NCBI GenBank assembly: GCA_035760645.1
Contig: DASTSO010000119.1
Span: 47,033-111,032 of the forward strand
Direction: 5' to 3'
Source of the DNA: Gemmatimonadales bacterium
Lineage (GTDB): Bacteria; Gemmatimonadota; Gemmatimonadetes; Gemmatimonadales; GWC2-71-9
Length of the DNA: 64,000 nt
The notes under the pieces: model-generated
Seen by the model: the letters and a program-made list of their open reading frames with translations, nothing else
Told to the model about the DNA's origin: nothing
The model's database searches: none
Program-made: the position numbers and the translations under genes
Shown: piece by piece, positions 1,745 to 19,219 of the stretch
Layout of the letters: the number at the start of each line of letters is the position of its first letter
How positions within the stretch are numbered: position 1 is the stretch's first letter

Positions 1745-2062
1745 TAGGGCGGTTGTAGATGGTCCTCTCCCCGATCCGGACCATAGCCCTAGCCTGGTTG
1801 CTCCCCCGCCGCGGGAAAGTCAAGAGCAAGACCCCGAGTTGCGCGGGTGAAGGGGCCTGTCCTGACGACGGGACGGTGGGCTGGCACGCAGTGCGTGGTG
1901 AAAGCGTGCCGACGAACGGCGCCGTGACCATGCTGTGCCTCCTAAGCGGAATGGCGAGTCGGAACCCGAAGGCTGTACCGCGCCCGTCCGTTTCGGCGGA
2001 TGTGGACTCAGCGGTCGGGGAATCTCGGGAGAGTCATCGCGCGGGAGGGCGATGAGCGAACT

Positions 2063-2076
2063 TAGGGATTTCCCTA
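2063..2076. promoter_or_regulatory. Perfect 6-2-6 palindrome TAGGGA-tt-TCCCTA in a locally AT-rich intergenic patch; candidate operator
   Basis: Read directly. It lies about 450 bp upstream of the metalloprotease gene and downstream of the sigma-54 activator gene. Confidence 0.3.
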
Positions 2077-2109
2077 GTACCGCGGCAATCGCTCGTTCTC
2101 ATATCTTGC

Positions 2110-2148
2110 AACTGCGGAGTTACTCAACATTACACTGATACCGCAGTT
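2110..2148. promoter_or_regulatory. 8-bp inverted repeat AACTGCGG-N23-CCGCAGTT in an AT-rich spacer; candidate regulator or enhancer-binding site
   Basis: Read directly. The surrounding 2040-2160 is much lower in GC than the rest of the window. Confidence 0.25.
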
Positions 2149-2520
2149 CTAGACCCCTCCATCACATTTCGCGGCTTCTCCGCCCCTTTCTGGCGGCGCT
2201 GACCCGGTGCGCAGCGGCTGGTGCGGAAAGCGCCTACGACGAGCTCGCTGCAGCCGATACGGCCAACACGTCGTCCGACGGGTGGTCGCGACATAGCACC
2301 AACACGATTCGGGGCTTCATCGGACCCCATGAGGGATACTCGAGGTTCGCCGCCGCGCGCTTCTCATCCTGAGGCGGTTGGGGCTCGTACCACAGACACG
2401 TTCTGGATGCACCGATACGAGAGTCAGACGCGGCTGGTGAACGGCGGAAACGGAGCCTCATTGAGATGCCTGTGTGCCTCGGGGGCTCCCCTCTCCATCT
2501 CTCCTCACGGGAGGTCACGC

Positions 2521-4365: not shown

Positions 4366-4489
4366 TTGTGGCCTCGGCCCTCCAAGTGTTCGGGGCTAAG
4401 AGGGCCCTGCGGGTCCCAGTCCTCGGGGTGACAAGGGTCCACCAGTCGCATTTCTGAATCCATCGTGGAAGGGTCTCCGGGAGAGTGCC

Positions 4490-4909
4490 ATGTCTCGACT
4501 CGGGTTACATGCAGTTCTGCTGGTTGGCATCGGATTCGGACTGGGTTGCTCGAGCAGCCCTACCAATCAGAGCACAAGCGCAGTGAACGCGTATGTCTTC
4601 GGCACGGTGTTGACCAGTAGCGGAATGCCGGTCGTTGGCGCTACAGTGGCAATCCATGCCGAGATCGATTCTCCGAATGGCCTCCGCCCCTACGCCGCTA
4701 AGACGGCGAGCACGGACGACAAGGGCCGCTATCACATGATTCTCAGTGCTCCGCAGGCTCCCCCTGCCGACGCGCAGCTGACCATTGAGGTGAGCCCTCC
4801 GTCGGGGGCGGCTCTGCAGCCGGTAACAGTTCGGGACCAAGTCGCCCGTTTTCGCGATGCGTTTCCGCCCGCGGATAGTCTCGAAGTGAATGTGACGCTG
4901 ACACCTTGA
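4490..4909 (+). CDS. Small lipoprotein with a carboxypeptidase-regulatory-like beta-sandwich
   Basis: Lipobox GFGLGCSS. VFGTVLTSSGMPVVGATVAIHAE is typical of CarbopepD_reg-like folds. RBS GGGAGAG. Confidence 0.55.
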   Translation: MSRLGLHAVLLVGIGFGLGCSSSPTNQSTSAVNAYVFGTVLTSSGMPVVGATVAIHAEIDSPNGLRPYAAKTASTDDKGRYHMILSAPQAPPADAQLTIEVSPPSGAALQPVTVRDQVARFRDAFPPADSLEVNVTLTP

Positions 4910-5201
4910 CGGTCCGACGCCTTCGGTCTCCTGACAACCAGCGGCTGCTCTGATGGGCATCATGTGGGGGCATCAACTTGCGGCTATCGTAGGGCCGGAC
5001 CGGTACGTATGACTCCTGCATGGCTACCGCATCGGCTCCGCCGGCGCAGCTGGAAGTGCGGCGGCTCCAGGCCATGCGGGACAGCGTGGATCATGTGATC
5101 CACGGCCGTGACGGTGAGATCCGCGAGAACAAGAGTTACGGCCACAACGCGCTGCTGTCGTGCGATCAGCGCTGAGGGAGACGTCAGGTGAGAACTGAAT
5201 G

Positions 5202-5230
5202 GAACCGCCGACCCCATAGGGCGGCGGTTC
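5202..5230. terminator. Strong hairpin GAACCGCCGACCCC-ATA-GGGCGGCGGTTC followed by TGTCTTG; candidate intrinsic terminator
   Basis: Stem of 12 bp with one bulge, followed by a U-rich stretch on the plus strand. It lies 27 bp after an unlisted 48-codon ORF (5029-5175). Confidence 0.4.
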
Positions 5231-5461
5231 TGTCTTGCGACCGGATGGGGGCGCTCCCGGCTACATGTCCGGGCTCTTCGCAAGGACTCGGATTCTGCGC
5301 CCATGGCGTTCGGTCGGTGCATTCCAGCCGCCTCGATCGAGCTGACCGTCTGCTATTCCCGCACGGTGCAACCTGGCGGGCGATAACACCGCGGGGACCT
5401 CGGCATGGCCGACGGGTCCCCGCATCGATCGGCTTGAACTATCTAGGAGACGAAGGCTGGC

Positions 5462-5788
5462 TCACGCCCGGTGAACCTCCCAGGCGAGATGGGTGATGCC
5501 CTTCGTCCGCAGCTTGTCCACCACGAGGACGAACTCATCCCAATCACTCTGGGTGAACACACGAGGGTCGGGCTTTCCCGTGCGGCCCATGCGGAGCCGA
5601 GGCAACAGCCAATCGATCGCGACGACGGTGTAGCCGGTGCCAAGGGTCACTTGGGCCACCTCACTGACGTCCACGAGCCAGAATTCGAGGGCGAAGGGGG
5701 CGAGGCTGTATACCGGGCGCAGCCCGGCCTCGACCGCAACGTCGGCGAGGAGCACCGCATTGAGGGCCAGCGGCGCGAGTTCGCTCAT
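5462..5788 (-). CDS. Hypothetical small protein (108 aa), downstream gene of the coupled pair
   Basis: ATG at 5788 is preceded by GGAGGTGG. The sequence MSELAPLALNAVLLADVAVEAGL...VVAIDWLLPRL is globular-looking. The longer ORF-track N-terminus is an Arg/Pro-rich artefact. Confidence 0.5.
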   Translation of the reverse strand: MSELAPLALNAVLLADVAVEAGLRPVYSLAPFALEFWLVDVSEVAQVTLGTGYTVVAIDWLLPRLRMGRTGKPDPRVFTQSDWDEFVLVVDKLRTKGITHLAWEVHRA

Positions 5789-6069
5789 GGAACCACCTCC
5801 GACTGGCCGAGCCCAGCCGGCGCCCCAGGAGCGGCCGCGCCCTCGAGGCGCTTCAGGAGACCCTGAAGTCCCTGATCGGGATCGGGCCCATGGAGCGCCT
5901 CCTCCAAGCGATTCAGCGCTTCGAGCACCCGGGGGACTGGGTACGGAAAGGAAACGTCCGGGTCGAGCATGAGCTTGATGAGGCAGTAGTGGTGGACCAC
6001 GAACGCGAGGAACTGCGCGTCGCGGCGCGGCAGGACGATGGTGTCGCGAGACCGGGTAGAAGCGGGCAT
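5785..6069 (-). CDS. Hypothetical small protein (94 aa), upstream gene of a two-gene coupled pair
   Basis: Start taken at M31 of the ORF-track entry. The stop TGA overlaps the ATG of the next gene (ATGA). The start is uncertain because no clear SD is present. Confidence 0.4.
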   Translation of the reverse strand: MPASTRSRDTIVLPRRDAQFLAFVVHHYCLIKLMLDPDVSFPYPVPRVLEALNRLEEALHGPDPDQGLQGLLKRLEGAAAPGAPAGLGQSEVVP

Positions 6070-6796
6070 GGAATATGTGTGGGAGGGAAGGGGACCGAGC
6101 GGGGAGGGAGGCGAGCATCGGTCGACCCGCAATACCGGTGGGGCGACCGGGGACATCATGTGAGAGCGCGGGCAGCGGGTGCAAGTGGGCGGGGCGGACT
6201 CAGAGGCGCAATCGCTTGGCTGGACCGACCCTGTTTGGCCAGATGAGTCTGCCCGCCTTCGAGGTGACCCCCAGGCGATCTAGCCGCCGCCGAGGTCGCA
6301 GCCCGCTGCGCGGCGGTGGTGCTTGCTCCCGCATGCGTCAACCGGAGTCCGCGCGAGTACCGTGCCCGGTGGGCGCAGGCGGCGCCGGCCGAATACACCT
6401 TCGGTCAGTTGGATGTCTCGCCCTCCGGGGCGCAATGGAGCTTGGGGGTGGGTACCGCCGGTGGACAGGAGGGGTAAGCGGGAGCATCCCGACGGCCGCG
6501 CTGGGTCCGGTCGTTCGCTGAGGCCTCTCCGTCTTTCTTACGAGAGCCGAGGCCGGTCGATGCCGCGAGCGGGTTTCACCTTGAGGGCTCCGCACCCCCG
6601 GATTTAGGCAATCGAGCCCGCAAAGGTGGCTGAGGCAGCCGTCACCATCCGGATATCGCCCCCGCTTTGAACCCCGGTCTGGCTCCTTGGCGAGCAGCAA
6701 ATCGCCAGTCCGGATTGCCGCGAGGCAAAGGGTGGTGTCAGCCCCGCCTCGTATATTCTCCATCACCCCCCCCACTCTCACCTCCCAGGAGCCCTC

Positions 6797-7351
6797 ATGC
6801 TGCTCAAGGCCGCTGCCTTGAAGGCCGTGGCGCTGTCCGCCATAGCCGCGACTGCGCTGGCTGCTGTTCTTCCCGAGCGCACCGTTATTGTGACGCAGCC
6901 TGGAAGTCCGATTCAGATCACGAAATATCAGGCGCACTACAACGAGGGGAACCGGTTTGTCGCGCGTGGCATCGCGCACATGGTCTCCTACACGAACACC
7001 TCGCCGAAGAAGGTGGTGGCGTTCCGGGTCGGCATCGTGTCGTTCAACGTGTTCGACGAGTTCCTCGGTCGCATGGGTGGCTACGCCACCGAGGATCTCG
7101 TCCCGAACAAGGGCGCCCCGGGTACCTGGACCCAGAACGTCTATGCCGGTTCCTCATTCCACACGGGCATTATGTACGTGGACAAGGTCCGCTTCGAGGA
7201 CGGGACAATGTGGGTCTCCGACAAGGCCCCGGTGCTCGAGGCGATCCGCCAACTCCAGAAGGATTTTGACTCCAAGCTCCTGGAGGAGCGCTTGAACCGC
7301 GAGGTTCCGGGCGGAGAGGCCGCCGGTGGCGCCGCTGCGGCGGGAGACTGA
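6797..7351 (+). CDS. Secreted hypothetical protein (signal peptide)
   Basis: RBS AGGAGCC. Signal peptide MLLKAAALKAVALSAIAATALAAV. Balanced amino-acid composition. Confidence 0.65.
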   Translation: MLLKAAALKAVALSAIAATALAAVLPERTVIVTQPGSPIQITKYQAHYNEGNRFVARGIAHMVSYTNTSPKKVVAFRVGIVSFNVFDEFLGRMGGYATEDLVPNKGAPGTWTQNVYAGSSFHTGIMYVDKVRFEDGTMWVSDKAPVLEAIRQLQKDFDSKLLEERLNREVPGGEAAGGAAAAGD

Positions 7352-7373
7352 CCGAGACCGCTTGAGTCGCTGT

Positions 7374-7420
7374 GTGCCGACGTCGGGGCTCTCTCGGGAG
7401 CCCCGACGTCGGCGCACAGT
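7374..7420. terminator. Bidirectional intrinsic terminator between convergent genes
   Basis: Stem GTGCCGACGTCGGGGCTC with its complement GAGCCCCGACGTCGGCGCAC, followed by AGTTCTACTT. Confidence 0.5.
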
Positions 7421-7477
7421 TCTACTTGCAGTGCCACGGGCGCCGGTTGATGGCAGCCTGGACGGCGTCGCACTGGG

Positions 7478-8188
7478 TTAGGGGTCCACCCCGGGCCGGG
7501 CAAGCAGGCTGTCGACCGGATAGTCCCAGACATAACCGCCGCCATGCACCGCGATATGCGTGATTCCGACCGCCCTGGCCGCCGTCGGAGTGAACGCGCT
7601 CCGGTTCCAGCCCTGCACCGACGCGTCACCGAGTTCGGCCTGGACGAAACTGCCACGCGCGTGACGCTCGGCGGATTCGAGGTCGGCAGCGTACCGGGTC
7701 GTGATGTCGAGCCGACGGGCGAGCGTGTCGCGCACGTAGACCACGTTCGCGCTGCCCCATTGGCGGTAGACCTGCGCGACCTGACGGGCGAAGGCGATCC
7801 GGCGCTGAATCCCACGGCTCGCCTCGTCGCTCACGGGTTGCCACAGAGTCCCCGCCGCATCACGAATCGCAATGTCCCACCGATGGCCGCCCCCCGGCCA
7901 CTGGATCTGGAGCTCCGTGAAGCCCCGCCGCTGCAGCTCCGGAATGGTGGTGAGCCCCTTCGGCTCGAGGTTGCCCGCGATCATCGCTGGCCGCACGCTG
8001 TCCAGGGGCCCGGTCGAGCCGTCCACTCCCGGCCCCTCCGGGCCGATGTCGAGTACGAGGCGCGTTACCTCCGCTCCGACCGCCCCCAGACGCCACGGCA
8101 TCCCGAGTTCCGCTGCCGCTTGTGCTCGCTTCATGAGGTAGTCGGCACGGCGCCGCCCCATCACTGTCTGAGCGCGGTGTCGTGCCAC
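7478..8188 (-). CDS. Hypothetical protein, probably a lipoprotein whose true N-terminus extends to about 8340
   Basis: The same frame upstream of the GTG at 8188 encodes ...IAAGALLVTTATLVTACGPSSESQQ, a lipobox followed by a linker. No ATG, GTG or TTG precedes it before the in-frame stop. Confidence 0.55.
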   Translation of the reverse strand: MARHRAQTVMGRRRADYLMKRAQAAAELGMPWRLGAVGAEVTRLVLDIGPEGPGVDGSTGPLDSVRPAMIAGNLEPKGLTTIPELQRRGFTELQIQWPGGGHRWDIAIRDAAGTLWQPVSDEASRGIQRRIAFARQVAQVYRQWGSANVVYVRDTLARRLDITTRYAADLESAERHARGSFVQAELGDASVQGWNRSAFTPTAARAVGITHIAVHGGGYVWDYPVDSLLARPGVDP

Positions 8189-8764
8189 GTCGGGCGGATA
8201 AATGAGGCTGTCGGCAGAGGGTAGCGCCGCAGGGCTTGAGGCGCCTGTCGGGGACCGCGCGGGCCGCTGCTGCGATTCGGAGCTAGGACCACAGGCCGTG
8301 ACGAGTGTGGCCGTCGTAACGAGGAGGGCCCCTGCGGCAATCGTCGGTAGCGGGGTAATCGACCGACACTTGGCCTCGAGCGGTATCTACATGTCGAGCG
8401 TCTCCTGGTTGGCAGCCGTCTGGTCGACGGCTGTCTATTGACGCATGGGGAGGCACGCCAGGCGGGGCACGTATAGGCAGGAAGGCGGCTGGCCCCGAGC
8501 GTCTTGGTGCTGGTCCGTTGCGGGGGCGCAGTGAGCGCGAGATGGTGGTGTGTGCCCAGCACGTGCCGGACCTCGCACGCGAGGTACTCCGCTCGACTAG
8601 CGTTGCTGGGCCACGTCCGAGCCCATAAAGCATTCCGTCACCGGCGCGGTGCTCGACGATGCAGGTGGTCCTACGAGCTCACTGGGAGGACGGGTTGCCT
8701 GCGTGCCTCATCAACTCCACTGCCCCCCGTCGGGGACACTCCGCGAACCGGGTGCATAACGGCG

Positions 8765-11700
8765 TCAGGAGACTCGCTTGCGCAGGGCGGCGGCGCCGGG
8801 GCAGCCGAGGCGAGCCATGGCCTCGCACACCTCTAGGAGCACCGCACGATCTGCCCGCGCGTCAATGAGCTCGCCCACGAGGGTCTCGAGGTCACCACAC
8901 TCCCAGCGCAGTTGCGTCGTGCCGGCGAGCACGTGCCGGAGCAGACACGCGACGGGCTCCGGCGCCGTGCGGGCGAGGCCTTCCTCGCGAAGCTCATAGA
9001 ACAGCATCGTGTGCTCGCCGAGGGTGATCGGCATCGCCACGAGGAGCTCCACGACCGCCGGCAGCACTGTCCGCAGGCCGAACACCCACTCGAGCATCGC
9101 CCGCCGTTCCTCCTCACTCAGCGGGCTCGGCACACCAGTAAGCCGGTCTCGCCAGTAATCGGCGAGCCAGCGAGTCCACGCCAACTCGGCCGCATCGGCG
9201 CTGAGCTCGCGGAGCTCCCGCCCCATCGCGGCGGCCCACGCCGTGTGCGTAGCGGGGTCGGCGTCCCGAATGAACCGCTCGAGCCAACCGCCGTGCCACG
9301 GATCGGCAGACGAGTAGAGCGCCACGCCAGCGAGTCGTCCCGCAAAGTCCTCGCGACGACGCTCAAGCGCGGAGCCTATCCGCTCGTACGTCTGCTCCAG
9401 GTAGGGCTGGAGCCGCTCGAAGAGCGCGTCGTTCCAGCGCCCCCACTGCAGGTAGCCGTCCCACGCGTGGGCGGCACGATCCTCGTCCACCGTCCAATCG
9501 AATAGCGGCAGCAGCTGGCGACCAGACCATTCCGGATCAAGCGCGTAGAGAAAGTGCGCTTGGCTCGCGAAGATGATCCGGGCCCGGTCCGCACCGACGG
9601 TCGGGACTTCCAGGACATGGTCGAGCCGGTCTCGCTCGGCCGGCGGCAGGCCGGTCCACTCGTCGCCGGCCGTGTTCCGAAGGGTCTCGAGCGTCTGGAG
9701 CCAGGCCATCGCTGCCCGTCCGGCCGGGTGGTTGATGGCCAGGAACAGCCAGTCGGGACCGTCGGAGGTGCTCACCGTGTCCCCGAGGTCGTCCCGGAGC
9801 GCGAGCCGCTCCGCCATGTCGCGCACCGTGTGGAGCAGGGCGGGCGGGGCGCCCCCGTCCCCCTTCGCCGCATGGTCGAGCAGAGACGACACCTCATACG
9901 GAAATGCGTGCTCGAGGTGGCGGTGGGTCTCGAGGAGTTGAAGCACGCGGCGCCACTGGAGTTCGTCGAGCGCGGCACCGCGCCACGCCTCCAGCACCGC
10001 GGGCCAGAGCCCGGCGTCCTCCGCCTCACCGTGGTCGCGGAGCGCCTCGGCGAGCTCCCAGGACCACTCAAACGAGGCCCTGCTGGCGTCCCGCACCACC
10101 TCCAGCAGCCCGTGGCGGTCCGGCCCTTCACCCGTGCGCTGGTCACCTTGATATGCGAGCAGCCAGCCGAGCTCGGCCCTCGGCGACAGGGCCAGGAGCT
10201 CGTCGACGCCGCGCGGGCTCACCGGGATGACCGGCTGCACGCCCGACGACCAGTGGGTCAGGTCCGGGTGCTCCCGCGGCTCGAGGTCCGGGGTAGCCGC
10301 CTTGGCAGCGGCGAGGCGGTCGACTGTGATGGCGGAGTCGGGGGCCGCACGGGCCAGCCAGACGAGCAGGTTGTAGCGCTCGTACGTCTCGATCCCGGTC
10401 TCCTCGGGCGTCGTCGGCGGTTGCTCGAGGACGGGCTGCACGAGTGCGGCATCGAGGAACGCTTGGCGGGTCGCCTCGTCGGCCGCGGCATACGCGCGCG
10501 CGAGCAGGCGGAACGTCTCGTGCTTGAGCGCTGAGTCGTGGAGCCAGCCGGCCGCGAGCACGTCGGCGAGTGCCTCCGCGGGCTGGTTCGGCGCGCGCTC
10601 GGCGAGGCCGTGGATCGCCAGGCGCTTCAGGAGTGGCGACGCCGCCTCCCGCCAGAGGGTGATCCAGGCATCGGCGACCTTCGGCTCCGCGGCCAAGAGG
10701 AACTCCAGCAGATCCCGCGCGGCATCGACCACGACATCGAGGCCCGAGGGATACGGATCCTGCGGGTGTGGCTCGATTGCCGACCGGCGGAAGCTCAGCG
10801 GGTCCCATACGCCGTCCGCGGTCCCGGCGGCGACAAGCAGCACGTGCGCGCGCGTGAGGCTCTCGGTGAGGAGCATGCCGACGGTGCGATGGCATCGCGG
10901 CAGCGCGGGTAGGAAGAGGCGCTGCCAGCTCTTGCGGAGGGTATGGTCGTCCCCGGTCGGGCCGATCGAGAAGCGAAGCCGTGGTGTGACACCGGCTCCG
11001 TCCAGCCCCGGCAGCGCCGGGCCCAGGCTAGAGACCGGAGCGATCAGGTGCCCGAGGAGGAGGAGGGCTCCGGCGAGTGCCTCGGGCGGGCAGCGCCCGA
11101 GGAGCTGGCTCAGGGGGCGGGCGTCCCACTGCGGGTTCCGCGTGGTCACGAGAACCGTGATCCATCGCATGAGGAGCTCGGGCTCCGGCAGCGGGTCCAC
11201 CGCCGCCAGGTGCCAGGCGAGGCTGCGCCAGCACTGGTGCCCGAGTTGGAGATGGTGGGCGCGCAGGAGATCGAGGAGCTCGCCCGAGTGCTCGAGCATG
11301 AAGCGCTCGGCGAGCCACTGGGCGAGCTCGGCCACGGCGCCCGGGTCTGCAGTCGGTGCATTCCCGAAGAGCGGCTCGAGGACGCCGGCGTCGGCAGCGA
11401 ACGTGAGCCAGGCCGGGACGCTCGCGTGCCGCACGAAGAACGGGCGCTGGACCGGGTCGGCGAGCGCCCGCCGCAGGTAATCGACGTCGCGTCGCTCGAT
11501 CGGCGGGGCGACGCTGACCAGCGTGCGGATCCGATGCTCGTGGTCCAGCGCACCCATCGTGGCGAGGTTCGCCCAGGCCTCGAGAGCATCGCTCAAGGCG
11601 CCGTGATCCCGTGGGGCGCGGAGCGGATAGTGGACCGGCCGGATGCCGAGCTCCGCCCAGCGCGCGTCGCTACCCGGAGTCGTCAACGCGAAGCGGGCGG

Positions 11701-12346
11701 TCCCGGGCACCAGGCTCCGTGCCAGATAGCGCATCGTCGGATCGCCGTGGCTGTAGCCCACAAAGCAGACGGTGTTGTGCAGGAACAGCTCGAGCAGCAG
11801 GCGGGTGGCCCACCCCTCTGTCAGGTAGGCACGACCGAAGTCGGCGTCGGTGAGCACGAGCGGGTGGTGGGCTATATCCAGCGCGCCGTGTACGTGGATC
11901 AGGCCACGGGCCTGGCGCCCTAAGGGGAGCGCCGGCGCCGTGTACAGGGGGGCCGCGCCCGCACCGTGGCGGTCGGTGATCACGGTCGCGAAGTGCCGAT
12001 CGAAGTTCGTGGTGACGATCCGGATCCGATCCGGAGCCCCGAAGAGCCGCACGATCGCCTCGTGCATCGGGGTCGGCTTCGACGACGCCACGTCGAGCAA
12101 CTGGCGCGTGCGGCCCTGCACATCCACCCCGCGGTGCTCCGCGCGGCCGAGGTACTGGTCGAGGGGCTCTCCCGCCGTGGGAGCCCCGATCGCGGTCTCC
12201 GCGACCTGTCTGGCAAGCCGCTCGAAATCCGGGAGGTTCGAGGGAGAGCCCATGGAGACGCCGGCGCCGGCGAACACAACGAGGCGCCCCTCTTGGAGCG
12301 CCTCGAGCAGATCGTCGGGAAGGTCCACCTCGGTCGTGACGAACAC
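8765..12346 (-). CDS. Large SIR2-like domain protein (N-terminal SIR2_2-type NADase fold, helical C-terminus of about 850 aa); candidate DSR-like antiphage effector
   Basis: GTG start. Rossmann loop VVFAGAGVSMGS. Catalytic-region motifs IVTTNFDRHF and LIHVHGALD, then VLTDADFGRAYL and CFVGYSHGDP. These are the motifs that define the SIR2 family. No HerA, TIR or Argonaute partner is adjacent. Confidence 0.8.
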   Translation of the reverse strand: MFVTTEVDLPDDLLEALQEGRLVVFAGAGVSMGSPSNLPDFERLARQVAETAIGAPTAGEPLDQYLGRAEHRGVDVQGRTRQLLDVASSKPTPMHEAIVRLFGAPDRIRIVTTNFDRHFATVITDRHGAGAAPLYTAPALPLGRQARGLIHVHGALDIAHHPLVLTDADFGRAYLTEGWATRLLLELFLHNTVCFVGYSHGDPTMRYLARSLVPGTARFALTTPGSDARWAELGIRPVHYPLRAPRDHGALSDALEAWANLATMGALDHEHRIRTLVSVAPPIERRDVDYLRRALADPVQRPFFVRHASVPAWLTFAADAGVLEPLFGNAPTADPGAVAELAQWLAERFMLEHSGELLDLLRAHHLQLGHQCWRSLAWHLAAVDPLPEPELLMRWITVLVTTRNPQWDARPLSQLLGRCPPEALAGALLLLGHLIAPVSSLGPALPGLDGAGVTPRLRFSIGPTGDDHTLRKSWQRLFLPALPRCHRTVGMLLTESLTRAHVLLVAAGTADGVWDPLSFRRSAIEPHPQDPYPSGLDVVVDAARDLLEFLLAAEPKVADAWITLWREAASPLLKRLAIHGLAERAPNQPAEALADVLAAGWLHDSALKHETFRLLARAYAAADEATRQAFLDAALVQPVLEQPPTTPEETGIETYERYNLLVWLARAAPDSAITVDRLAAAKAATPDLEPREHPDLTHWSSGVQPVIPVSPRGVDELLALSPRAELGWLLAYQGDQRTGEGPDRHGLLEVVRDASRASFEWSWELAEALRDHGEAEDAGLWPAVLEAWRGAALDELQWRRVLQLLETHRHLEHAFPYEVSSLLDHAAKGDGGAPPALLHTVRDMAERLALRDDLGDTVSTSDGPDWLFLAINHPAGRAAMAWLQTLETLRNTAGDEWTGLPPAERDRLDHVLEVPTVGADRARIIFASQAHFLYALDPEWSGRQLLPLFDWTVDEDRAAHAWDGYLQWGRWNDALFERLQPYLEQTYERIGSALERRREDFAGRLAGVALYSSADPWHGGWLERFIRDADPATHTAWAAAMGRELRELSADAAELAWTRWLADYWRDRLTGVPSPLSEEERRAMLEWVFGLRTVLPAVVELLVAMPITLGEHTMLFYELREEGLARTAPEPVACLLRHVLAGTTQLRWECGDLETLVGELIDARADRAVLLEVCEAMARLGCPGAAALRKRVS

Positions 12347-13003
12347 GCACGGAATCTATCTGCCCCCGAGACCTTGGCTAGCCGAAGCCCCCGGCCCGCG
12401 AAGCGGGCCGCCTCTAGACGTGCCGGATGGCAGCTGCCGAGGAACTGAAGCGGAAAACACCCGGCAGGTTGACGCGGGAACAGGCGAGAGCGTGAGCCGA
12501 GCGGCCCCTCGCGGCCGCAAGGATGGCTCGGGCTCGGTCGCCACTAGCGGAGCAGCCGGACCCCGTCGCGGCGGACGCGCTCCTGGCGCGGATGCCTCGA
12601 GCAACCCTCAGGGCAGGGGCAAGTCCGAGCTGCCCCGATTCGACGAGGGGAGCCCGGAGCAATCGGTGCTGGTCGGCACGCTCGCTGCCGAGGAAGCCAC
12701 TCCTCCGCGCCCTCCCAGCAGCAGGCGGTCCGGTGTTAGCATTTCCGTGGGTCGTTTCAGAGTCGGCTACGGGACGTGCGCTCAGTCGCCGGTACCGGAC
12801 CTTGGGTCGCGACACTGCCCTTCGCCGGCTGGGGTACCGGTGGGACTCGCCCTCAATCTGCCGTCCGAATGTGCCCGGAGCGAGTGCCGGGCCGAGCCCC
12901 TAGCCGAGTGACAAGTGACAGCGCGATGGCCACCGGTGGCCCGTCGAAGTCTCCTCTAAACGCTTGGTATTAGTGGCCATCGGAAATGGGCGCCCGTCGG
13001 CGA

Positions 13004-13049
13004 AAGGTCTGCAAAACCTCCATCACCGGTTCGACTCCGGTCGGCGCCT
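13004..13049 (+). tRNA. tRNA-Cys(GCA) 3' remnant: anticodon arm through T-arm, acceptor 3' strand and U73, with no D-arm; pseudo-tRNA or att-site core
   Basis: Anticodon arm AAGGT-CTGCAAA-ACCTC carries GCA with U33 and A37. T-arm ACCGG-TTCGACT-CCGGT, then CGGCGCC and discriminator T. A possible 5' acceptor GGCGCCC sits at 12989-12995, but only 8 nt separate it from the anticodon stem. Confidence 0.5.
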
Positions 13050-13423
13050 CTCGATTTCGCATCAGCCCAACCGCCCGTGCCAGAGCTACCTGGCACGGGC
13101 GGTTGGCGCGTTCAGCCCCCGCGAGTCTCACTCCGCGAGTGACAGGATGAGTGACGAGACGCGGACCGCCCGACAGGCCGTGCCTGGGCGCGATGGCCCT
13201 GGGCGGTCTCGCTGGGCGCTGCGGGTGCACGGCGCCTCCACGGATGTGGTGGCGGGGCGGTCGGGGCGGGAGCCTCCCGCGGTGTCACGGATGCCTCTCA
13301 TCGCACGTCATGCTGGTGCAGAGCAGGTTCGATCCGCTTCATCTCGTAGCGCGACTCGGAGCGCGCCGTGTGCCGTCGTGCGCGACGGACGACCGGGAGC
13401 TTCTTCACCGAAAGGGGAACAGC

Positions 13424-14575
13424 GTGCCAGCTCGACTTCTCTTCCGCCGGGCCGCGCTGGCCGTAGCCTGTTGTGCCATCGCCGCGACGCGGACGACGAA
13501 TGCGCAGAGCGCGCAGGGCGCGCAGAGCGGGCAGAGCGCCCAACGCGCGGAGTCCCCGCGACGCGCGGTGGCCCGCGTCCTGGCGGCGGCCGACGCCATC
13601 ACGGCGCCCGGCGGCGTCGATACCCTCGCGCGGGTGGAGCTCGGCGGCATCCCGCAGTGGATCTCCGTGCGCGGCCGGGACCGGCGCAATCCGGTCCTGC
13701 TCTTCCTCCATGGCGGTCCGGGTTTCCCGACCATGCCGGTGAGTCACCGCTGGCAGGGGCCGTGGGAGGAATACTTCACGGTGGTGCAGTGGGACCAGCG
13801 CGGCGCCGGCAAGACTTACGCGGCGAGCGACCCGGCGGCGGTGCGGCCGACGCTCACCATACCGCGCATGATCGCCGATGCCGAGGAGCTGGTGCGCCAC
13901 CTGCGCACGCGCTACGGCCAGGAGCGGATCGTCCTGGTGGGACACTCATGGGGGACCGTGCTCGGCGTCGAGCTGGCGCGGCGGCATCCGGAGTGGTTCT
14001 CGGTCTACGTCGGCATCGGCCAGGGGGTGGATGTCCCCGCGCAGGAGCGGATGGGCTACGAGGCGCTGCTGGACAGCGCCGCGCGCGCGCGCGACACCGT
14101 GGCCCTCGCCGAGCTGCGCGCGCTGGCGCCCTACCCCGAGCGCGACGGCACCATGCCCGTCGCGAAGCTCTACGTCGAGCGCAAGTGGATGCGCGCCTAC
14201 GGCGGCTACAACTACCAGCATCCCGAGGGCGACCACTACGCCGATTTCGTCGCGATGAGCCCCGCCTACACCGACGCCGAGATAGCGACGCTCGGCCCGG
14301 CCATCGAGTTCGGCTTCCGGGCGCTCTGGCCGCAGCTCCAGGCGTACAACTTCTGGGACGTGACCGAGCTCCGCGTGCCGGTGGTGCTGTTCCACGGCAC
14401 CCACGATCTCACGACACCGCTGGTGCTCGCCGAGCGCTGGCTCGACCGCCTGCACGCGCCGTCGAAGGCGCTCGTCCGCTTCGAGCAATCGGCGCACATG
14501 GTGATGATGGAGGAGCCGGGCAAGCTGTTCTTCCACCTGGTGCGCGACGTGCGCCCGCTGGCCTCCCGGCCGTAG
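13424..14575 (+). CDS. Secreted alpha/beta hydrolase (prolyl aminopeptidase / S33 family)
   Basis: GTG at 13424 is preceded by AAAGGGG. The signal peptide follows. HGGPG motif, nucleophile elbow GHSWG. The upstream extension to 13151 is rejected. Confidence 0.8.
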   Translation: MPARLLFRRAALAVACCAIAATRTTNAQSAQGAQSGQSAQRAESPRRAVARVLAAADAITAPGGVDTLARVELGGIPQWISVRGRDRRNPVLLFLHGGPGFPTMPVSHRWQGPWEEYFTVVQWDQRGAGKTYAASDPAAVRPTLTIPRMIADAEELVRHLRTRYGQERIVLVGHSWGTVLGVELARRHPEWFSVYVGIGQGVDVPAQERMGYEALLDSAARARDTVALAELRALAPYPERDGTMPVAKLYVERKWMRAYGGYNYQHPEGDHYADFVAMSPAYTDAEIATLGPAIEFGFRALWPQLQAYNFWDVTELRVPVVLFHGTHDLTTPLVLAERWLDRLHAPSKALVRFEQSAHMVMMEEPGKLFFHLVRDVRPLASRP

Positions 14576-14659
14576 CCGTCCCGCGCCGCGGATGGTCCGC
14601 GAGCAGGCGCCCGGCGGTGGCGGCGGCGCACCATACCTTGGACTCGACGGGAGGGCTGC

Positions 14660-15139
14660 ATGAGCGTGAAGGAGCACCGGTACATGGTGGCGGTGGAGTG
14701 GACGGGCAATACGGGGGCAGGCACGACGGGATACCGCGCCTACGAGCGGTCGCACGAGATCTCCACACCGGGTGCGCCGAAGCCCGCCATCCCGGGCTCG
14801 TCGGACCCGGCGTTTCGCGGCGACCGCTCGCGGTGGAATCCTGAGGAGCTCCTCGTCGCCTCACTCTCAGCCTGCCACAAACTGTGGTACCTGCACCTGT
14901 GTGCCGAAGCCGGCGTGGTGGTCACCGGCTATGTGGACCGCGCCGAGGGATGGATGGTCGAGGAGGACGGGGGCGGCCGCTTTCGTCGCGTCGTGCTGCG
15001 CCCGGTGGTGACGCTCGCGCCCGGCAGCGATGCGGAACGCGCCCGCACGCTTCACCGCGAGGCCCACCGACGCTGCTACATCGCCACCTCGGTCAACTTC
15101 CCTGTCGAGCACGAGCCCGAGATCCGCTCGACCCGCTGA
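14660..15139 (+). CDS. OsmC/Ohr family peroxiredoxin-like protein
   Basis: OsmC-fold motifs: VEWTGNTGAGT...PEELLVASLSACHKLWYL...RCYIATSV. Confidence 0.85.
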   Translation: MSVKEHRYMVAVEWTGNTGAGTTGYRAYERSHEISTPGAPKPAIPGSSDPAFRGDRSRWNPEELLVASLSACHKLWYLHLCAEAGVVVTGYVDRAEGWMVEEDGGGRFRRVVLRPVVTLAPGSDAERARTLHREAHRRCYIATSVNFPVEHEPEIRSTR

Positions 15140-15219
15140 CCGGGACCACCGGCCAGCCCTCCGGGGCAGCCTGCAACCCGACCACATCGAAGACCACATC
15201 GAAGTCCCAGGAGACCCGT

Positions 15220-15399
15220 ATGCCTCTGGAGATGCGCGAGCGCTGCGAGCGGTGCGGCCAGGCCCTCGAACTCGACGGCCCGGCCTCCATCTGCAGCTAC
15301 GAATGCACGTTCTGCAACGCGTGCGCTGAGGCCATGGCCGGCGTCTGTCCGAACTGTGGCGGGGAGCTCGTCGCCCGGCCCCGGCGCCGGTCTGCGTGA
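15220..15399 (+). CDS. DUF1272-type zinc-ribbon protein (59 aa)
   Basis: MPLEMRERCERCGQALELDGPASICSYECTFCNACAEAMAGVCPNCGGEL: CxxC...CxxC ribbon. ATG at 15220 after CAGGAG. Confidence 0.6.
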   Translation: MPLEMRERCERCGQALELDGPASICSYECTFCNACAEAMAGVCPNCGGELVARPRRRSA

Positions 15400-15745
15400 C
15401 CCTGCCGTCGTTTCGGGCCGCGCTCCTCAGGTTGGCGTCGACACCGGCCCACGTACGGTTCCCCACCGCGCGCCGGGCACGCGGAGCCGAGGGGCGCTGC
15501 GACGGCCCGCCGGGTACCCGGCGGACCGCCACGCTCGGCTCACCACGGGTGGTAAGTGGACAAGGGCGCCCCCACATCTCGCGTGGGGGGCTCTCATGCC
15601 GACTCTCGATGCCGCCTGGCCGCACGCGCCGGGTGGCGACATCCTCATCTACATCACGGCCGTCATCGTCCTGCTCGGCTCGCCGGGCCCCGGCATCGCC
15701 GCCCTGCTCGCCGTCGGACGGGAGCGCGGTCTCGCCGGCGCCCTG

Positions 15746-16613
15746 GAGGTCGTTTCATAACCGCCGCTGGGCGGCGGCGTAGATTGCGGGCAGGTGGTTT
15801 GATGGAGCTGCCCGATGGCCTTTCTCACCGATGCCCAATGGGCGCGCATCGCGCCCTTGCTGCCCCCGCCGCGCCCGCACCCGCGCGGCGGCCGCCCGTG
15901 GGCCGATGACCGGGCGTGCCTCGAAGGCATTCTCTGGATCCTGCGCACCGGCGCCCGCTGGCGCGACTTACCACGGACCTACCCGAGCCCGGCGACCTGT
16001 TGGCGGCGCCTCGCGCGCTGGGAGGCCGAGGATCGCTGGAAGCGGATCTGGCGCGCGTTCCTCGGCCAGCTGGATCAGCGGGGGCTGCTCGGCTGGGAAG
16101 AATGCTTCCTCGACGGCACCTTTGCGCCGGCGAAAAAAGGGGGCCCGCCGTCGGCACGACCCGCAAGGGTAAGGGCACGAAGCTCATGGTACTGGTCGAG
16201 CGCGCGGGTCTACCTCTCGGAGTTTGCCTCGACGCTGCCACGGTGGCCGAGGTCAGCCTCGCCGAAGCGACGCTCGCCACGGTCGCGGTCCCGCGCGGCG
16301 GCCCCGGGCACCCGAAGGTGAAGCCCGTGCGCATCATCGCCGACCGGGGCTACGAGAGCCGCGCCCTCTGGCAGCGCCTGCGGCGACGGGGGATCGATCT
16401 CATCGTGCCGCATCGGCGGCAGATCATCCACCGCTTCCAGGACGGCCGGAAGCTCCGACGCTATCGCCGACGCTACATCGTCGAGCGCACGATCAGCTGG
16501 CTGCTGAGCTTCCGCCGGCTGCTCGTCCGCCATGAGCACCGGATCGAGCTCTACCGCGCCTTCGTGCACGTCGCCTGCCTCTGGATCGTGCTCAGGCGGT
16601 TATGAAACGACTA
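15746..16613. mobile_element. IS5-family insertion sequence (IS1031/ISL2-like), 868 bp, 20-bp imperfect terminal IRs, 3-bp target duplication CTG
   Basis: Left end GAGGTCGTTTCATAACCGCC; right end is its reverse complement, GGCGGTTATGAAACGACTAC. The 17-bp core is perfect. CTG flanks both ends (15743-45 and 16614-16). Confidence 0.8.
15815..16605 (+). CDS. IS5-family transposase OrfAB produced by -1 programmed frameshift at AAAAAAG (16133-16139)
   Basis: OrfA MAFLTDAQWARIAPLLPP...GARWRDLP is the DUF4096/HTH part. OrfB in the -1 frame (RKGKGTKLMVLVE...IIADRGYES...YRRRYIVERTISWL) carries the DDE region. Shifting at the A6G run reproduces the OrfB frame exactly. Confidence 0.8.
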
Positions 16614-17128
16614 CTGCGGTTCTACCTCGGCATGCAGCTCGGGCTCGCGATCGCGGCCGGGCTGAGCGTCGCCGGACTCGCCGCGGCGCTCCGCGCCGTT
16701 CCGCTGGCCGCAACGGCGCTCACGCTGATCGGGGCCGCGTACCTGGCCTGGCTCGCGTGGAGCATCGCCACCGCCCCCGTCGGCTCGCCCACGGCATCCG
16801 GAGCGGTGGCGTCGGCCTGGGGCGGTTTCCTTCTCGGGGCCGCGAACCCGAAGGTGTATCTCGCGCTCGTGTCGCTCTTCGCCTCGTTCCGTCTGGTCGC
16901 GGCGGGTGGCGCGACGGCCGAGTACCACGATGCGCTCCTCAAGTGGGCGCTCTGCATCGGGGTCACGGCGGTCGTGGACCTCGGCTGGCTCGGCGTCGGC
17001 GTGGGGCTCGGACGCGTGGCGCTTTCCCCGCGGGCGGAGCGCGTGCTCAACGTCGTCATGGGCGGGACGATCGTCCTCGCCGCCGCGGCCGCACTCCGCT
17101 GAGCGGCGATCAGGCGACACCCCGTCCG

Positions 17129-18978: not shown

Positions 18979-19180
18979 CGGCCCCTGAAGGGGCCACTCG
19001 GCCTGCGAGCCCTGAAGGGCTCTCCGAGGCAGCGGTGCTCCGTGCGCTCTCCGGCGCCCGAGTTCTCGCAGCGGAGCCCTGCGCCCGCACAGGGCCCTTC
19101 AGGGGCCTCCGGCCGAGGGGCCCCTTCAGGGGCCGACTCGCAGGGGCCGACTCGCAGGGGCCGACTCGCAGGGGCCGGCC
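18979..19180. repeat. Copy A of an approximately 200-bp multi-hairpin palindromic intergenic repeat, with 3x tandem GGCCGACTCGCAGG
   Basis: Left arm GGCCCCTGAAGGGGCC-ACTCGGCCTGCGAGCCCTGAAGGGCTCTCCGAGG. The right arm is its reverse complement, ...GAGCCCTTCAGGGGCCTC...GGCCCCTTCAGGGGCC. It lies between convergent gene ends (18932 and 19220). Confidence 0.65.
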
Positions 19181-19219
19181 CGCAGCCGCCGCCTCGCGAA
19201 CCACCGCCCCGCGCGTCGC

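What the first reader, a model, noticed from the sequence alone, without database searches (positions are those of the whole stretch)
8341..13049. Stand-alone 1,193-aa SIR2-domain protein between long spacers and a tRNA-Cys remnant: candidate single-gene NADase antiphage island
The protein at 8765-12346 opens with the three conserved SIR2 blocks: the Rossmann loop FAGAGVS, then TTNFD and HVHGALD. This is the SIR2 NADase core found in the DSR1/DSR2, Thoeris ThsA, SIR2-HerA and SIR2-pAgo defence systems. About 850 aa of helical sequence with no recognisable enzymatic motif follow.

No HerA, TIR, Argonaute or other partner gene is adjacent. This matches the single-protein DSR-like architecture, in which the C-terminal region senses a phage structural protein.

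The gene is bracketed by 420 bp and about 650 bp of non-coding DNA, unusually long for this compact window. The upstream spacer ends in a tRNA-Cys 3' fragment, which is an integration-scar signature.

Novelty cannot be judged without database searches.
Basis: partly seen in the sequence, partly recalled or inferred. Interest (0 to 1): 0.8.

Follow-up and report, generated by a model that had tools for sequence, protein, structure and literature searches.

The report
Divergent Dsr1-family antiphage sirtuin gene
A stand-alone 1,193-residue gene in a Gemmatimonadales chromosome encodes a divergent member of the known Dsr1 family of antiphage proteins (an NAD+-destroying SIR2 head fused to a long helical phage sensor); it is one ordinary example of a very large family that is already deposited.

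Summary
The ORF is real: 8765-12346, minus strand, 1,193 aa, with FAGAGVS, TTNFD and HVHGALD. Pfam finds SIR2_2 plus C-terminal DUF4020, which is the Dsr1 architecture. PADLOC and NCBIfam both name Dsr1.

A profile-profile comparison with five NCBI-named Dsr1 proteins aligns 1,116 columns end to end (probability 100%, E 2e-86). Identity is only about 20-34%, and the NCBIfam score is 275 bits against a cut-off of 1,400. The protein therefore belongs to a populous, unnamed sister clade of about 1,190 aa (1,595 clusters at E<=1e-30, many phyla).

The exact protein is already in NCBI (HEU4700026.1, "DUF4020 domain-containing protein"). The catalytic Asn and His are invariant, dN/dS is about 0.18, and no partner gene is conserved. 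The four nearest homologues lie in four different defence islands.

Most likely mechanism, by homology only: the sensor binds a phage protein (the major capsid protein for E. coli Dsr1) and switches on NAD+ hydrolysis.

The "tRNA-Cys remnant" is real. Its 3' 45 nt are identical to intact tRNA-Cys genes and the D arm is missing. No integrase, intact tRNA or repeat is present, so the integration-scar reading is unproven.

Verdict: new member of a known kind; low interest.

The parts
8765..12346 (-). Dsr1-like gene, 1,193 aa plus stop; identical to NCBI HEU4700026.1
   Evidence: The ORF is listed and has a GC3 of 0.87. It is 100% identical to P0001 / HEU4700026.1. Pfam finds SIR2_2 + DUF4020. Comparison with canonical Dsr1 by hhalign gives E 2e-86 over 1,116 columns. 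dN/dS is 0.17-0.19.
11477..12346 (-). SIR2 (SIR2_2-type) NADase head, aa 1-290, holding the GAGVS loop, N114/D116 and H153
   Evidence: Pfam SIR2_2 scores 60 bits. PDB sequence hits are KomC (9v0g), DSR2 and ThsA. Foldseek matches the head at TMt 0.6-0.68 to KomC and DSR2 SIR2 domains. The catalytic residues are invariant. This is the most conserved region: 50% identity to distant members and dN/dS of 0.10-0.12.
8768..11476 (-). All-helical solenoid sensor region, aa 291-1193, with one beta-hairpin at aa 437-463
   Evidence: The AF2 secondary structure is. The region is collinear with the Dsr1 sensor: BLASTP aa 508-1140 against 608-1226 gives E 2e-17, and hhalign supports the same. Foldseek matches the tail to HEAT/ARM solenoids and to full-length DSR2. 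Identity to distant members is 30-41% and dN/dS is about 0.21.
8828..9286 (-). DUF4020 match, aa 1021-1173
   Evidence: Pfam PF13212 scores 27.7 bits, above the gathering score of 22.7.
12347..12987 (.). Upstream non-coding spacer of 641 nt; the presumed promoter region was not identified
   Evidence: There is no codon periodicity, no Pfam hit on its ORFs and no Rfam hit. It is not conserved with the nearest relatives: similarity starts only 13 nt before the start codon. No sigma-70-like site was found.
8189..8764 (.). Downstream non-coding spacer of 576 nt
   Evidence: There is no clean periodicity, no Pfam hit and no similarity to relatives beyond the stop codon.
12989..13049 (+). tRNA-Cys(GCA)-derived pseudogene or remnant. 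Positions 13005-13049 are identical to intact tRNA-Cys genes. The 5' acceptor half is kept and the D arm is missing.
   Evidence: Supporting results are.
13065..13109 (+). Very stable hairpin directly after the tRNA-derived element; probably the native tRNA terminator
   Evidence: strand folding gives dG -42.2 kcal/mol and z -7.9, with 0 of 200 shuffles folding as well.

Best explanation
The gene encodes a single-protein antiphage sensor-effector of the Dsr1 (defence-associated sirtuin 1; SIR2 + DUF4020) family. It belongs to a large, divergent sister clade of about 1,190 aa.

Proposed mechanism:
- In uninfected cells the N-terminal SIR2 NADase is held inactive.
- During infection the long helical C-terminal sensor binds a phage protein. 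By analogy with E. coli Dsr1 this is the newly made major capsid protein.
- Binding activates the SIR2 head through N114, D116 and H153.
- The head hydrolyses NAD+ to ADP-ribose and nicotinamide. The resulting NAD+ depletion blocks phage replication.

Shown here: family membership in the broad sense, intact catalytic residues, purifying selection, stand-alone architecture and mobility among defence islands.

Inferred from homology only: NADase activity, antiphage function and the identity of the trigger.

The gene was probably acquired horizontally. It sits in a compositionally atypical stretch, next to a tRNA-Cys-derived remnant.
For: Family identity:
- Pfam finds SIR2_2 (60 bits) and DUF4020 (27.7 bits, above the gathering score).
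- PADLOC Dsr1 models give E 1.9e-62 and 1.8e-54.
- NCBIfam Dsr1 is the only hit, E 8.7e-82.
- BLASTP against NCBI-named Dsr1 gives 32-34% identity for the SIR2 head, plus a collinear sensor match at 20-24% identity, E 2e-17.
- hhalign of 42 clade members against 5 canonical Dsr1 gives probability 100%, E 2.1e-86 and 1,116 aligned columns, 10-1167 against 2-1252.

Integrity of the protein:
- N114, D116, H153 and the Gly loop are invariant or nearly so.
- The same Asn and His are the residues mutated in the KomC inactive-mutant structure 9v12 (alignment).
- dN/dS is 0.17-0.19.
- The AF2 model has pLDDT 87, with a SIR2 head and a helical solenoid. The best full-length PDB matches are DSR2.

Architecture and context:
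- DNA similarity to the relatives at 65-79% DNA identity stops at the ORF borders. Their flanking ORFs are unrelated.
- The neighbours of the four nearest homologues are defence or mobility genes: PD-Lambda-3_B; PDC-S14 + HerA-like + TIR; AbiEii + integrase + tRNA-Ser; PDC-S39 + E1-E2.

Function of the family in the literature:
- Dsr1 depletes NAD+ on phi29 infection (10.1101/2021.12.14.472415).
- The Dsr1 sensor is homologous to the Avs7 sensor, and the phage ZL19 major capsid protein is the unique trigger of EcDsr1 toxicity (PMC12803255 / PMC13581612).
Against: - The NCBIfam score is 275 bits against the equivalog cut-off of 1,400; the E. coli Dsr1 control scores 1,674. Functional equivalence with tested Dsr1 is therefore not guaranteed.
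- Single-model HMM hits rest mostly on the SIR2 head.
- The sensor is only about 20-24% identical to canonical Dsr1, so trigger specificity may differ.
- No member of this sister clade was shown here to have been tested experimentally.
- In this window no other defence gene lies within about 7 kb.
- No promoter was identified.
- Homology between this sensor and Avs7 was not tested directly here.
Confidence: 0.8

Rival explanations
1. The protein has the same fold and the same NADase effector, but this sister clade senses a different cue from the HK97-fold major capsid protein recognised by E. coli Dsr1. The cue could be another phage structural protein or another replication protein.
For: The sensor is only 20-24% identical to canonical Dsr1. 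It evolves about twice as fast as the head: dN/dS is 0.21 against 0.10-0.12, and identity to distant members is 30-41% against 50%. Related DSR2 senses a different protein, the tail tube (PMC10981675 abstract). Canonical Dsr1 is about 75 aa longer, with inserts in the N-lobe region.
Against: The sensor aligns collinearly end to end with canonical Dsr1, and many Trp and Leu positions are conserved. The literature reports MCP sensing as a shared property of this sensor type across different effectors (PMC13581612).
Confidence: 0.25
2. The gene arrived on a tRNA-Cys-integrating genomic island. Positions 13005-13049 would be the surviving attR-type copy of the tRNA 3' end, and the rest of the island (intact tRNA, integrase) has decayed or lies outside the window.
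For: - Identity to intact tRNA-Cys genes is perfect over the 3' 45 nt and breaks abruptly in the anticodon stem.
- A strong, native-looking terminator hairpin follows.
- The gene lies on the side where an island would be.
- Window 1-17 kb is 61-72% GC, against 72-81% for most of the rest, and GC3 is lower.
- An IS5 element lies nearby.
- A 65% homologue lies in an integrase/tRNA-Ser island.
- E. coli dsr1 lies in an integrase/tRNA-Leu island.
Against: - There is no intact tRNA in the 64-kb window.
- There is no second copy of the segment or of the tRNA 5' half, and no bracketing repeats.
- No integrase-like sequence was found, and the spacers show no decayed-gene signal.
- The segment is absent from viral contigs.
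- No syntenic empty site was found: relatives of the flanking hydrolase are all in other phyla.
- The retained 5' acceptor half (GGCGCC, GT) fits a whole gene with an internal deletion better than a pure 3' fragment.
Confidence: 0.35
3. The protein is a housekeeping or regulatory sirtuin (an NAD-dependent protein deacylase) with a large scaffold domain, unrelated to phage defence.
For: Some database entries name a homologue 'NAD-dependent protein deacetylase' (Moorella). NCBIfam gives very weak hits of homologues to a deacylase model, E about 1e-4. The window's other genes are ordinary chromosomal genes.
Against: - The head matches SIR2_2 and the defence NADases (KomC, DSR2, ThsA), not classical sirtuins: sirtuin-3 gives E 0.5 over 30 residues only.
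- Distribution is patchy across phyla, and every close homologue has a different neighbourhood, all of them defence islands.
- DNA similarity is limited to the ORF.
Confidence: 0.03
4. The gene is an inactive relic of a decayed island and is no longer functional.
For: It has long non-coding flanks, a damaged tRNA next door, an IS5 nearby and no recognisable promoter.
Against: The reading frame is intact over 3.6 kb. All family-invariant residues are retained. dN/dS is about 0.18 against relatives and codon periodicity is strong.
Confidence: 0.07

Closest known systems
Dsr1 (defence-associated sirtuin 1; NCBIfam NF041818; e.g. E. coli Dsr1, Nitrosococcus pNHAL01 Dsr1)
   Same: Both are single-gene systems. 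Both have an N-terminal SIR2_2 NADase head with the same GAG loop, TTNFD and HG motifs, followed by a long helical sensor ending in DUF4020. Profile alignment is collinear end to end (probability 100%, E 2e-86). Both are carried in defence islands.
   Different: Identity is only 32-34% in the head and 20-24% in the sensor. This protein is about 70-80 aa shorter. It scores 275 bits against the 1,400-bit equivalog cut-off. It belongs to a separate clade together with Rhodococcus, Bacillus, Moorella and Petrotoga proteins. No member of this clade was found here to have been tested.
DSR2 (B. subtilis; PDB 8k98, 8wyb and others)
   Same: DSR2 has a SIR2 head plus an alpha-solenoid sensor in one polypeptide. 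It gives the best full-length Foldseek matches (E 2e-8). It is an NAD+-depleting abortive-infection protein triggered by a phage structural protein.
   Different: Only the SIR2 head is detectably homologous by sequence: aa 8-208, E 1.7e-5. The window protein gives no NCBIfam Dsr2 hit. DSR2 lacks DUF4020, and its trigger is the tail tube protein.
Avs7 (antiviral STAND family 7)
   Same: According to PMC13581612, the Dsr1 sensor is homologous to the Avs7 TPR sensor, which envelops the phage major capsid protein.
   Different: Avs7 has a STAND NTPase and other effectors; this protein has no NTPase domain. Homology of this particular sensor to Avs7 was not tested here, and no Avs7 sequence or structure was available.
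Thoeris ThsA, SIR2-HerA and KomC (other defence SIR2 NADases)
   Same: They share a homologous SIR2 catalytic domain. KomC 9v0g gives E 4e-11, ThsA gives E 5e-5, and structural TMt is 0.4-0.68.
   Different: This protein has no SLOG domain, no ThsB/TIR partner, no HerA partner and no KomB partner at the locus. Those systems are multi-gene; this one stands alone.

Membership tests
Dsr1 (SIR2 + DUF4020 defence-associated sirtuin), broad family | N-terminal SIR2_2-type domain with catalytic Asn and His | tested here: met
   Pfam SIR2_2 scores 60 bits. N114, D116 and H153 are invariant in 42 members and align with the Asn and His mutated in KomC 9v12.
Dsr1 (SIR2 + DUF4020 defence-associated sirtuin), broad family | C-terminal DUF4020 at the end of a long helical sensor | tested here: met
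   Pfam PF13212 scores 27.7 bits against a gathering score of 22.7, aa 1021-1173. The tail is helical in the AF2 model.
Dsr1 (SIR2 + DUF4020 defence-associated sirtuin), broad family | Full-length collinear homology with recognised Dsr1 proteins | tested here: met
   hhalign of A2 against A3 gives probability 100%, E 2.1e-86 and 1,116 columns. BLASTP gives sensor matches at E 2e-17 and 5e-9.
Dsr1 (SIR2 + DUF4020 defence-associated sirtuin), broad family | Single-gene system with no conserved partner | tested here: met
   Only the ORF is shared with the relatives at 65-79% DNA identity. Their flanking ORFs are unrelated.
Dsr1 (SIR2 + DUF4020 defence-associated sirtuin), broad family | Association with defence islands or mobile elements | tested here: met
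   This holds for the four nearest homologues. In the window itself there is only an IS5, a tRNA remnant and atypical GC, with no neighbouring defence gene.
Dsr1 (SIR2 + DUF4020 defence-associated sirtuin), broad family | Phage-triggered NAD+ depletion and protection from phage | not testable with these tools
   Known only for tested Dsr1 proteins (10.1101/2021.12.14.472415; PMC13581612).
Dsr1 equivalog (NCBIfam NF041818) | Whole-protein score at or above the curated cut-off of 1,400 bits | tested here: not met
   The score is 275.5 bits, with the best stretch at aa 2-295. The E. coli Dsr1 control scores 1,674 bits. Clade relatives score 246-325 bits.
DSR2 | Homology beyond the SIR2 domain to the DSR2 middle and C-terminal domains | tested here: not met
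   Sequence matches to DSR2 chains cover only aa 4-208. The window protein gives no NCBIfam Dsr2 hit. Full-length Foldseek TM is only about 0.2.
Thoeris (ThsA/ThsB) | SLOG/STALD domain in ThsA and an adjacent TIR ThsB gene | tested here: not met
   PADLOC ThsA hits are weak (E 1.6e-5) and limited to the SIR2 part. No TIR gene is nearby.
SIR2-HerA | Adjacent HerA-type ATPase gene | tested here: not met
   No HerA lies within about 7 kb in the window. A HerA-like gene lies next to the 70% homologue in L006 but is not conserved in other loci.
Avs7 (STAND) | STAND NTPase domain between effector and sensor | tested here: not met
   Pfam, NCBIfam and PADLOC find no NTPase domain.
tRNA-integrated genomic island | Intact tRNA plus a direct repeat of its 3' end bracketing an integrase-bearing segment | tested here: not met
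   Only one tRNA-Cys-derived copy is present. There is no intact tRNA, no repeat and no integrase in the window. The left end may lie outside the window.

The most novel reading that the evidence does not exclude
The roughly 1,190-aa 'DUF4020 domain-containing' clade contains this gene. It fails the Dsr1 equivalog model and is named only generically in databases. The most novel reading not excluded is that it is a functionally distinct defence family, whose sensor recognises a different phage component from the major capsid protein sensed by E. coli Dsr1, possibly with a different outcome for the cell. A more remote possibility is that the D-arm-less tRNA-Cys-like element next to the gene is a functional tRNA-like RNA and not a scar.
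Probability: 0.15. Interest if true: 0.45.

Novelty: new member of a known kind. Interest (0 to 1): 0.2.

Why it matters
The locus itself matters only modestly. It adds a Gemmatimonadales example to a very large family of single-protein NAD+-depleting antiphage sensors.

The useful by-product is a sharper picture of the family. A populous sister clade of canonical Dsr1 is homologous end to end but lies far below the NCBIfam equivalog threshold. It has at least 1,595 clusters at 50% identity and occurs in Gemmatimonadota, Bacillota, Actinomycetota, Thermotogota, Planctomycetota and Acidobacteriota. It is therefore annotated only as 'DUF4020 domain-containing' or 'SIR2 family' protein.

Testing one member would show whether capsid sensing extends across the whole SIR2-DUF4020 superfamily.

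Tried and rejected
1. Empty-site test. Relatives of the right-flank alpha/beta hydrolase in 185,579 reference genomes were all at or below 57% identity and in other phyla, with no synteny and no tRNA in the 12 longest of these loci scanned. No conclusion on insertion was possible.

2. Looking up the source contig through the exact protein: not on record.

3. Search for att repeats, a second copy of the tRNA 3' segment, the tRNA 5'/D-arm part, or integrase-like sequence in the window: none found.

4. The tRNA segment in viral contigs: none. None of the 74 contigs that match the segment shares the window's flanks.

5. A conserved upstream small ORF (51 aa in three relatives) or a conserved downstream partner: these ORFs are unrelated to each other and absent from the window.

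6. Decayed genes or known RNAs in the two spacers: none.

7. A solved structure or sequence covering the sensor (Dsr1 or Avs7) in the PDB: only SIR2-domain matches.

8. Supplementary tables of the Avs7/Dsr1 paper, to see whether this accession is already catalogued there: not held as text.

10. Viral contigs encoding this clade: only 1 locus, at 33% identity.


Full report
**Observation**

The window has an ORF at 8765..12346 on the minus strand, with a GTG start and 1,193 aa. Its codon-position GC is that of a real gene in this high-GC genome: GC1/2/3 = 0.77/0.50/0.87.

ARAGORN finds no tRNA anywhere in the 64-kb window. The two flanks lack codon periodicity and give no Pfam or Rfam family hit. 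They measure 576 nt downstream (8189-8764) and 641 nt upstream (12347-12987). The median gap between ORFs with coding-like composition in this window is about 105 nt, so both flanks are long. They are not unique, however: they are 2 of 9 uncovered stretches of 300 nt or more.

**What the protein is**

- Pfam gives SIR2_2 (aa 110-213, 60 bits) and DUF4020 (aa 1021-1173, 27.7 bits, above the gathering score of 22.7). This is the domain pair that defines Dsr1.
- PADLOC's best hits are three Dsr1 models, the best at E 1.9e-62. ThsA hits are only weak.
- NCBIfam's single hit is the Dsr1 equivalog model, but at 275.5 bits against a cut-off of 1,400, with the best stretch at aa 2-295. As a control, an E. 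coli plasmid Dsr1 scores 1,674 bits over the full model. Relatives of the window protein from Rhodococcus, Bacillus and Moorella, and the 78% homologue, score 246-325 bits.

Direct comparison with NCBI-named Dsr1 proteins fetched from plasmids shows two things:
- The SIR2 head is 32-34% identical (E 4e-39 and 1e-36).
- The sensor gives a collinear but weak match. For Nitrosococcus Dsr1 it covers aa 508-1140 against 608-1226 at 24% identity, E 2e-17. For E. coli Dsr1 it is 20% identical, E 5e-9.

A profile-profile comparison of 42 members of the window's clade against 5 canonical Dsr1 proteins gives probability 100%, E 2.1e-86 and 1,116 aligned columns, positions 10-1167 against 2-1252. An all-against-all BLAST matrix separates two clades. 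Canonical Dsr1 proteins are about 1,265 aa and score 1,180-1,750 bits against each other. The window, Rhodococcus and Bacillus proteins are about 1,170-1,195 aa, score 290-440 bits against each other and about 190 bits against canonical Dsr1.

The protein is therefore homologous to Dsr1 over its whole length. It belongs to a sister clade and is not an equivalog.

**How common it is**

The exact sequence is already deposited as HEU4700026.1, [quoted passage not shown], from a 111-kb MAG contig.

- The word-indexed search found 2,161 homologues among its scored candidates. The top 120 are nearly all full length (about 1,160-1,220 aa) at 34-78% identity. Those that carry a name come from Gemmatimonadota, Moorella, Petrotoga, Actinomycetota, Planctomycetes and Blastocatellia.
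- The exhaustive HMMER search of 1.84 billion cluster representatives found 4,677 hits at E<=1e-3 and 1,595 at E<=1e-30. Most of the best 150 are full length.

**Integrity and structure**

T112, T113, N114, F115, D116, H153 and G154 are invariant in the 42-sequence alignment. The glycine loop is conserved in at least 90% of sequences. In the PDB alignment, the inactive-mutant KomC chain (9v12) differs from the wild-type chain (9v0g) at exactly the Asn and His that align with N114 and H153.

dN/dS against the three closest genes is 0.17-0.19. It is 0.10-0.12 in the head and 0.20-0.21 in the sensor. Identity to distant members is 50% in the head and 30-41% in the sensor segments.

An AlphaFold2 model built on the family alignment is confident (pLDDT 87, pTM 0.71). 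It shows an alpha/beta head up to about aa 280, followed by an uninterrupted helical solenoid with one beta-hairpin at aa 437-463.

Foldseek against the PDB ranks full-length DSR2 chains first (E 2e-8, but TM about 0.2). It matches the head to KomC, DSR2 and ThsA SIR2 domains (TMt 0.4-0.68) and the tail to importin/HEAT-type solenoids. No solved structure covers the sensor by sequence, even with a family profile.

**Architecture and mobility**

The four nearest homologues (78, 70, 65 and 55% identity) lie on contigs with four unrelated neighbourhoods. For the three closest, DNA similarity to the window begins 0-13 nt before the start codon and ends at the stop codon. The flanking small ORFs called in those contigs are unrelated to each other and to the window. 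The gene is therefore the only conserved unit, which makes this a single-gene system.

The relatives' neighbours are defence or mobility genes by PADLOC, Pfam and ARAGORN:
- L004: PrlF/YhaV and PD-Lambda-3_B (E 6e-85).
- L006: a TIR protein, PDC-S14 (E 2e-101) and a HerA-like ATPase.
- L007: AbiEii, IS elements and an integrase abutting tRNA-Ser.
- L008: PDC-S39 (E 5e-171) and an E1-E2/JAB operon.

Canonical E. coli dsr1 likewise sits between a tRNA-Leu/integrase pair, a phosphorothioate-dependent restriction enzyme and a type I R-M system.

In the window itself the neighbours are not defence genes. They are a secretin fragment, a sigma-54 activator, a putative lipoprotein with an HEYGH motif, small unknown ORFs, an alpha/beta hydrolase, OsmC, a LysE gene split by an IS5 element, GGACT and YdjM. 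The rest of the window is ordinary chromosome, including transketolase and sensor kinases.

The first roughly 17 kb are compositionally atypical. GC is 61-72% there, against 72-81% for most of the rest, and GC3 is 0.81-0.90 against 0.93-0.99. Only one IMG/VR contig encodes a relative, at 33% identity.

**The tRNA-Cys element**

Rfam in sensitive mode reports one sub-threshold tRNA-like match at 12988-13049 on the plus strand (24 bits, E 0.2). It has a GCA anticodon loop and an intact T arm.

The 43-nt stretch 13006-13048 occurs exactly in 74 metagenome contigs. In the contigs tallied, it continues upstream into the 5' half of a complete tRNA-Cys: GGCGCCGTAGCCAAGTGGTAAGGCAGAGGTCTGCAAAACCTCCATCACCGGTTCGACTCCGGTCGGCGCCT. 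That sequence folds as a cloverleaf.

The window copy keeps GGCGCC, but has CGTCGGCGAAA (11 nt) in place of the 21-nt D-arm region, and it cannot form a cloverleaf. BLAST identity to the intact genes starts at 13005 in every hit listed (40 of 74 shown), and none of the 74 contigs shares any flank with the window. A very stable hairpin follows at 13065-13109 (dG -42.2 kcal/mol, z -7.9).

A perfect 45-nt 3' block that breaks off in the anticodon stem, followed by a native-looking terminator, is what an attR-type remnant would look like, and the Dsr1-like gene lies on the island side. Several results argue against a clear scar:
- The window holds no intact tRNA, no second copy of either tRNA half, no bracketing repeat and no integrase-like sequence.
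- The segment is absent from viral contigs.
- No syntenic empty site could be found, because the flanking hydrolase has its nearest relatives (57% or less) in other phyla.
- The retained 5' acceptor half fits an internally deleted pseudogene equally well.

I therefore treat the scar reading as plausible but unproven, at about 0.35.

**Mechanism**

Shown in the literature for the family:
- Dsr1 expressed in B. subtilis protects against phi29 and causes transient NAD+ depletion without culture collapse (10.1101/2021.12.14.472415).
- NAD+-reconstituting phage pathways overcome Dsr1 (10.1101/2024.02.11.579819).
- The Dsr1 sensor is homologous to the Avs7 TPR sensor, both are predicted to be bilobed, and the major capsid protein of phage ZL19 is the unique trigger of E. 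coli Dsr1 toxicity (PMC12803255 and its Nature version PMC13581612).

Inferred for this gene: the helical sensor binds a phage protein made during infection, most likely an HK97-fold major capsid protein. Binding releases the SIR2 head to hydrolyse NAD+, which starves phage replication.

The weak link is trigger identity. The sensor is only 20-24% identical to canonical Dsr1, and I found no tested member of this sister clade.

**Comparison and verdict**

The locus is a new member of a known kind. It is a divergent Dsr1-family gene, already deposited and generically annotated, in a very large family. Interest is low (0.2).

The residual novelty lies in the sister clade as a whole. It is missed by the equivalog model and might have a distinct trigger. 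I put the probability of that at about 0.15.

Noticed in passing
window 15356-17102: An IS5-family element at 15815-16605 splits a LysE-type translocator gene. The element has a DUF4096 ORF and a DDE_Tnp_1 ORF in different, overlapping frames. The LysE N-terminus lies before the element, and profile positions 24-188 of 193 resume at 16602-17102.
   Followed up: partly
window 2221-4365 (+): A 714-aa ORF lies in the lowest-GC part of the window (61-64%). It has a probable lipoprotein signal (MRGWQSFGFVALMAAGVAC) and an HEYGH zinc-protease motif. It has no hit in Pfam, PADLOC or PHROGs.
   Followed up: partly
window 1745-6796: About 5 kb has few or no ORFs with the genome's usual codon-position GC pattern, and its GC is 61-67%. 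It is probably foreign or decayed DNA to the left of the Dsr1-like gene.
   Followed up: no
window 13065-13109 (+): A hairpin with a stem of about 19 bp (17 contiguous pairs, then a one-base bulge and 2 more) lies directly after the tRNA-Cys-derived element. dG is -42.2 kcal/mol and z is -7.9. It is probably the tRNA's terminator.
   Followed up: partly
window 18979-19196: There are 64-nt inverted arms at 18979-19042 and 19072-19135 (80% complementary). Next to them is a 14-nt tandem repeat, CAGGGGCCGACTCG, in about 5 units including two degenerate ones, at 19127-19196. Both lie between the YdjM-like and PRAI genes.
   Followed up: no
L007 9202-17065: The 65% homologue lies in a classical island: an AbiEii gene, IS110/IS5 transposases and a tyrosine integrase that ends exactly at a tRNA-Ser(TGA) gene.
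   Followed up: partly
L006 1365-10744: The 70% homologue is flanked by a small TIR protein, a PDC-S14 protein and a convergent 825-aa HerA-like (DUF87) ATPase. The HerA-like neighbour is not conserved in the other loci, so it was not treated as a partner.
   Followed up: partly
L008 197-16357: The 55% homologue lies next to an E1/E2/JAB ubiquitin-like (Bub-type) operon and a PDC-S39 protein, E 5e-171.
   Followed up: no
L109 (E. coli GF43 chromosome) 2164-15792: Canonical dsr1 sits in a tRNA-Leu/integrase island together with a phosphorothioate-dependent restriction endonuclease, a 5'-nucleotidase and a type I R-M system. Only 15 of 5,426 complete E. coli genomes carry this allele.
   Followed up: partly
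window 761-1744 (+): The sigma-54 activator appears to consist only of an AAA+ core and lid (327 aa as called), with no receiver or sensor domain detected. It matches only the AAA part of PADLOC RtcR models, with no CARF.
   Followed up: no
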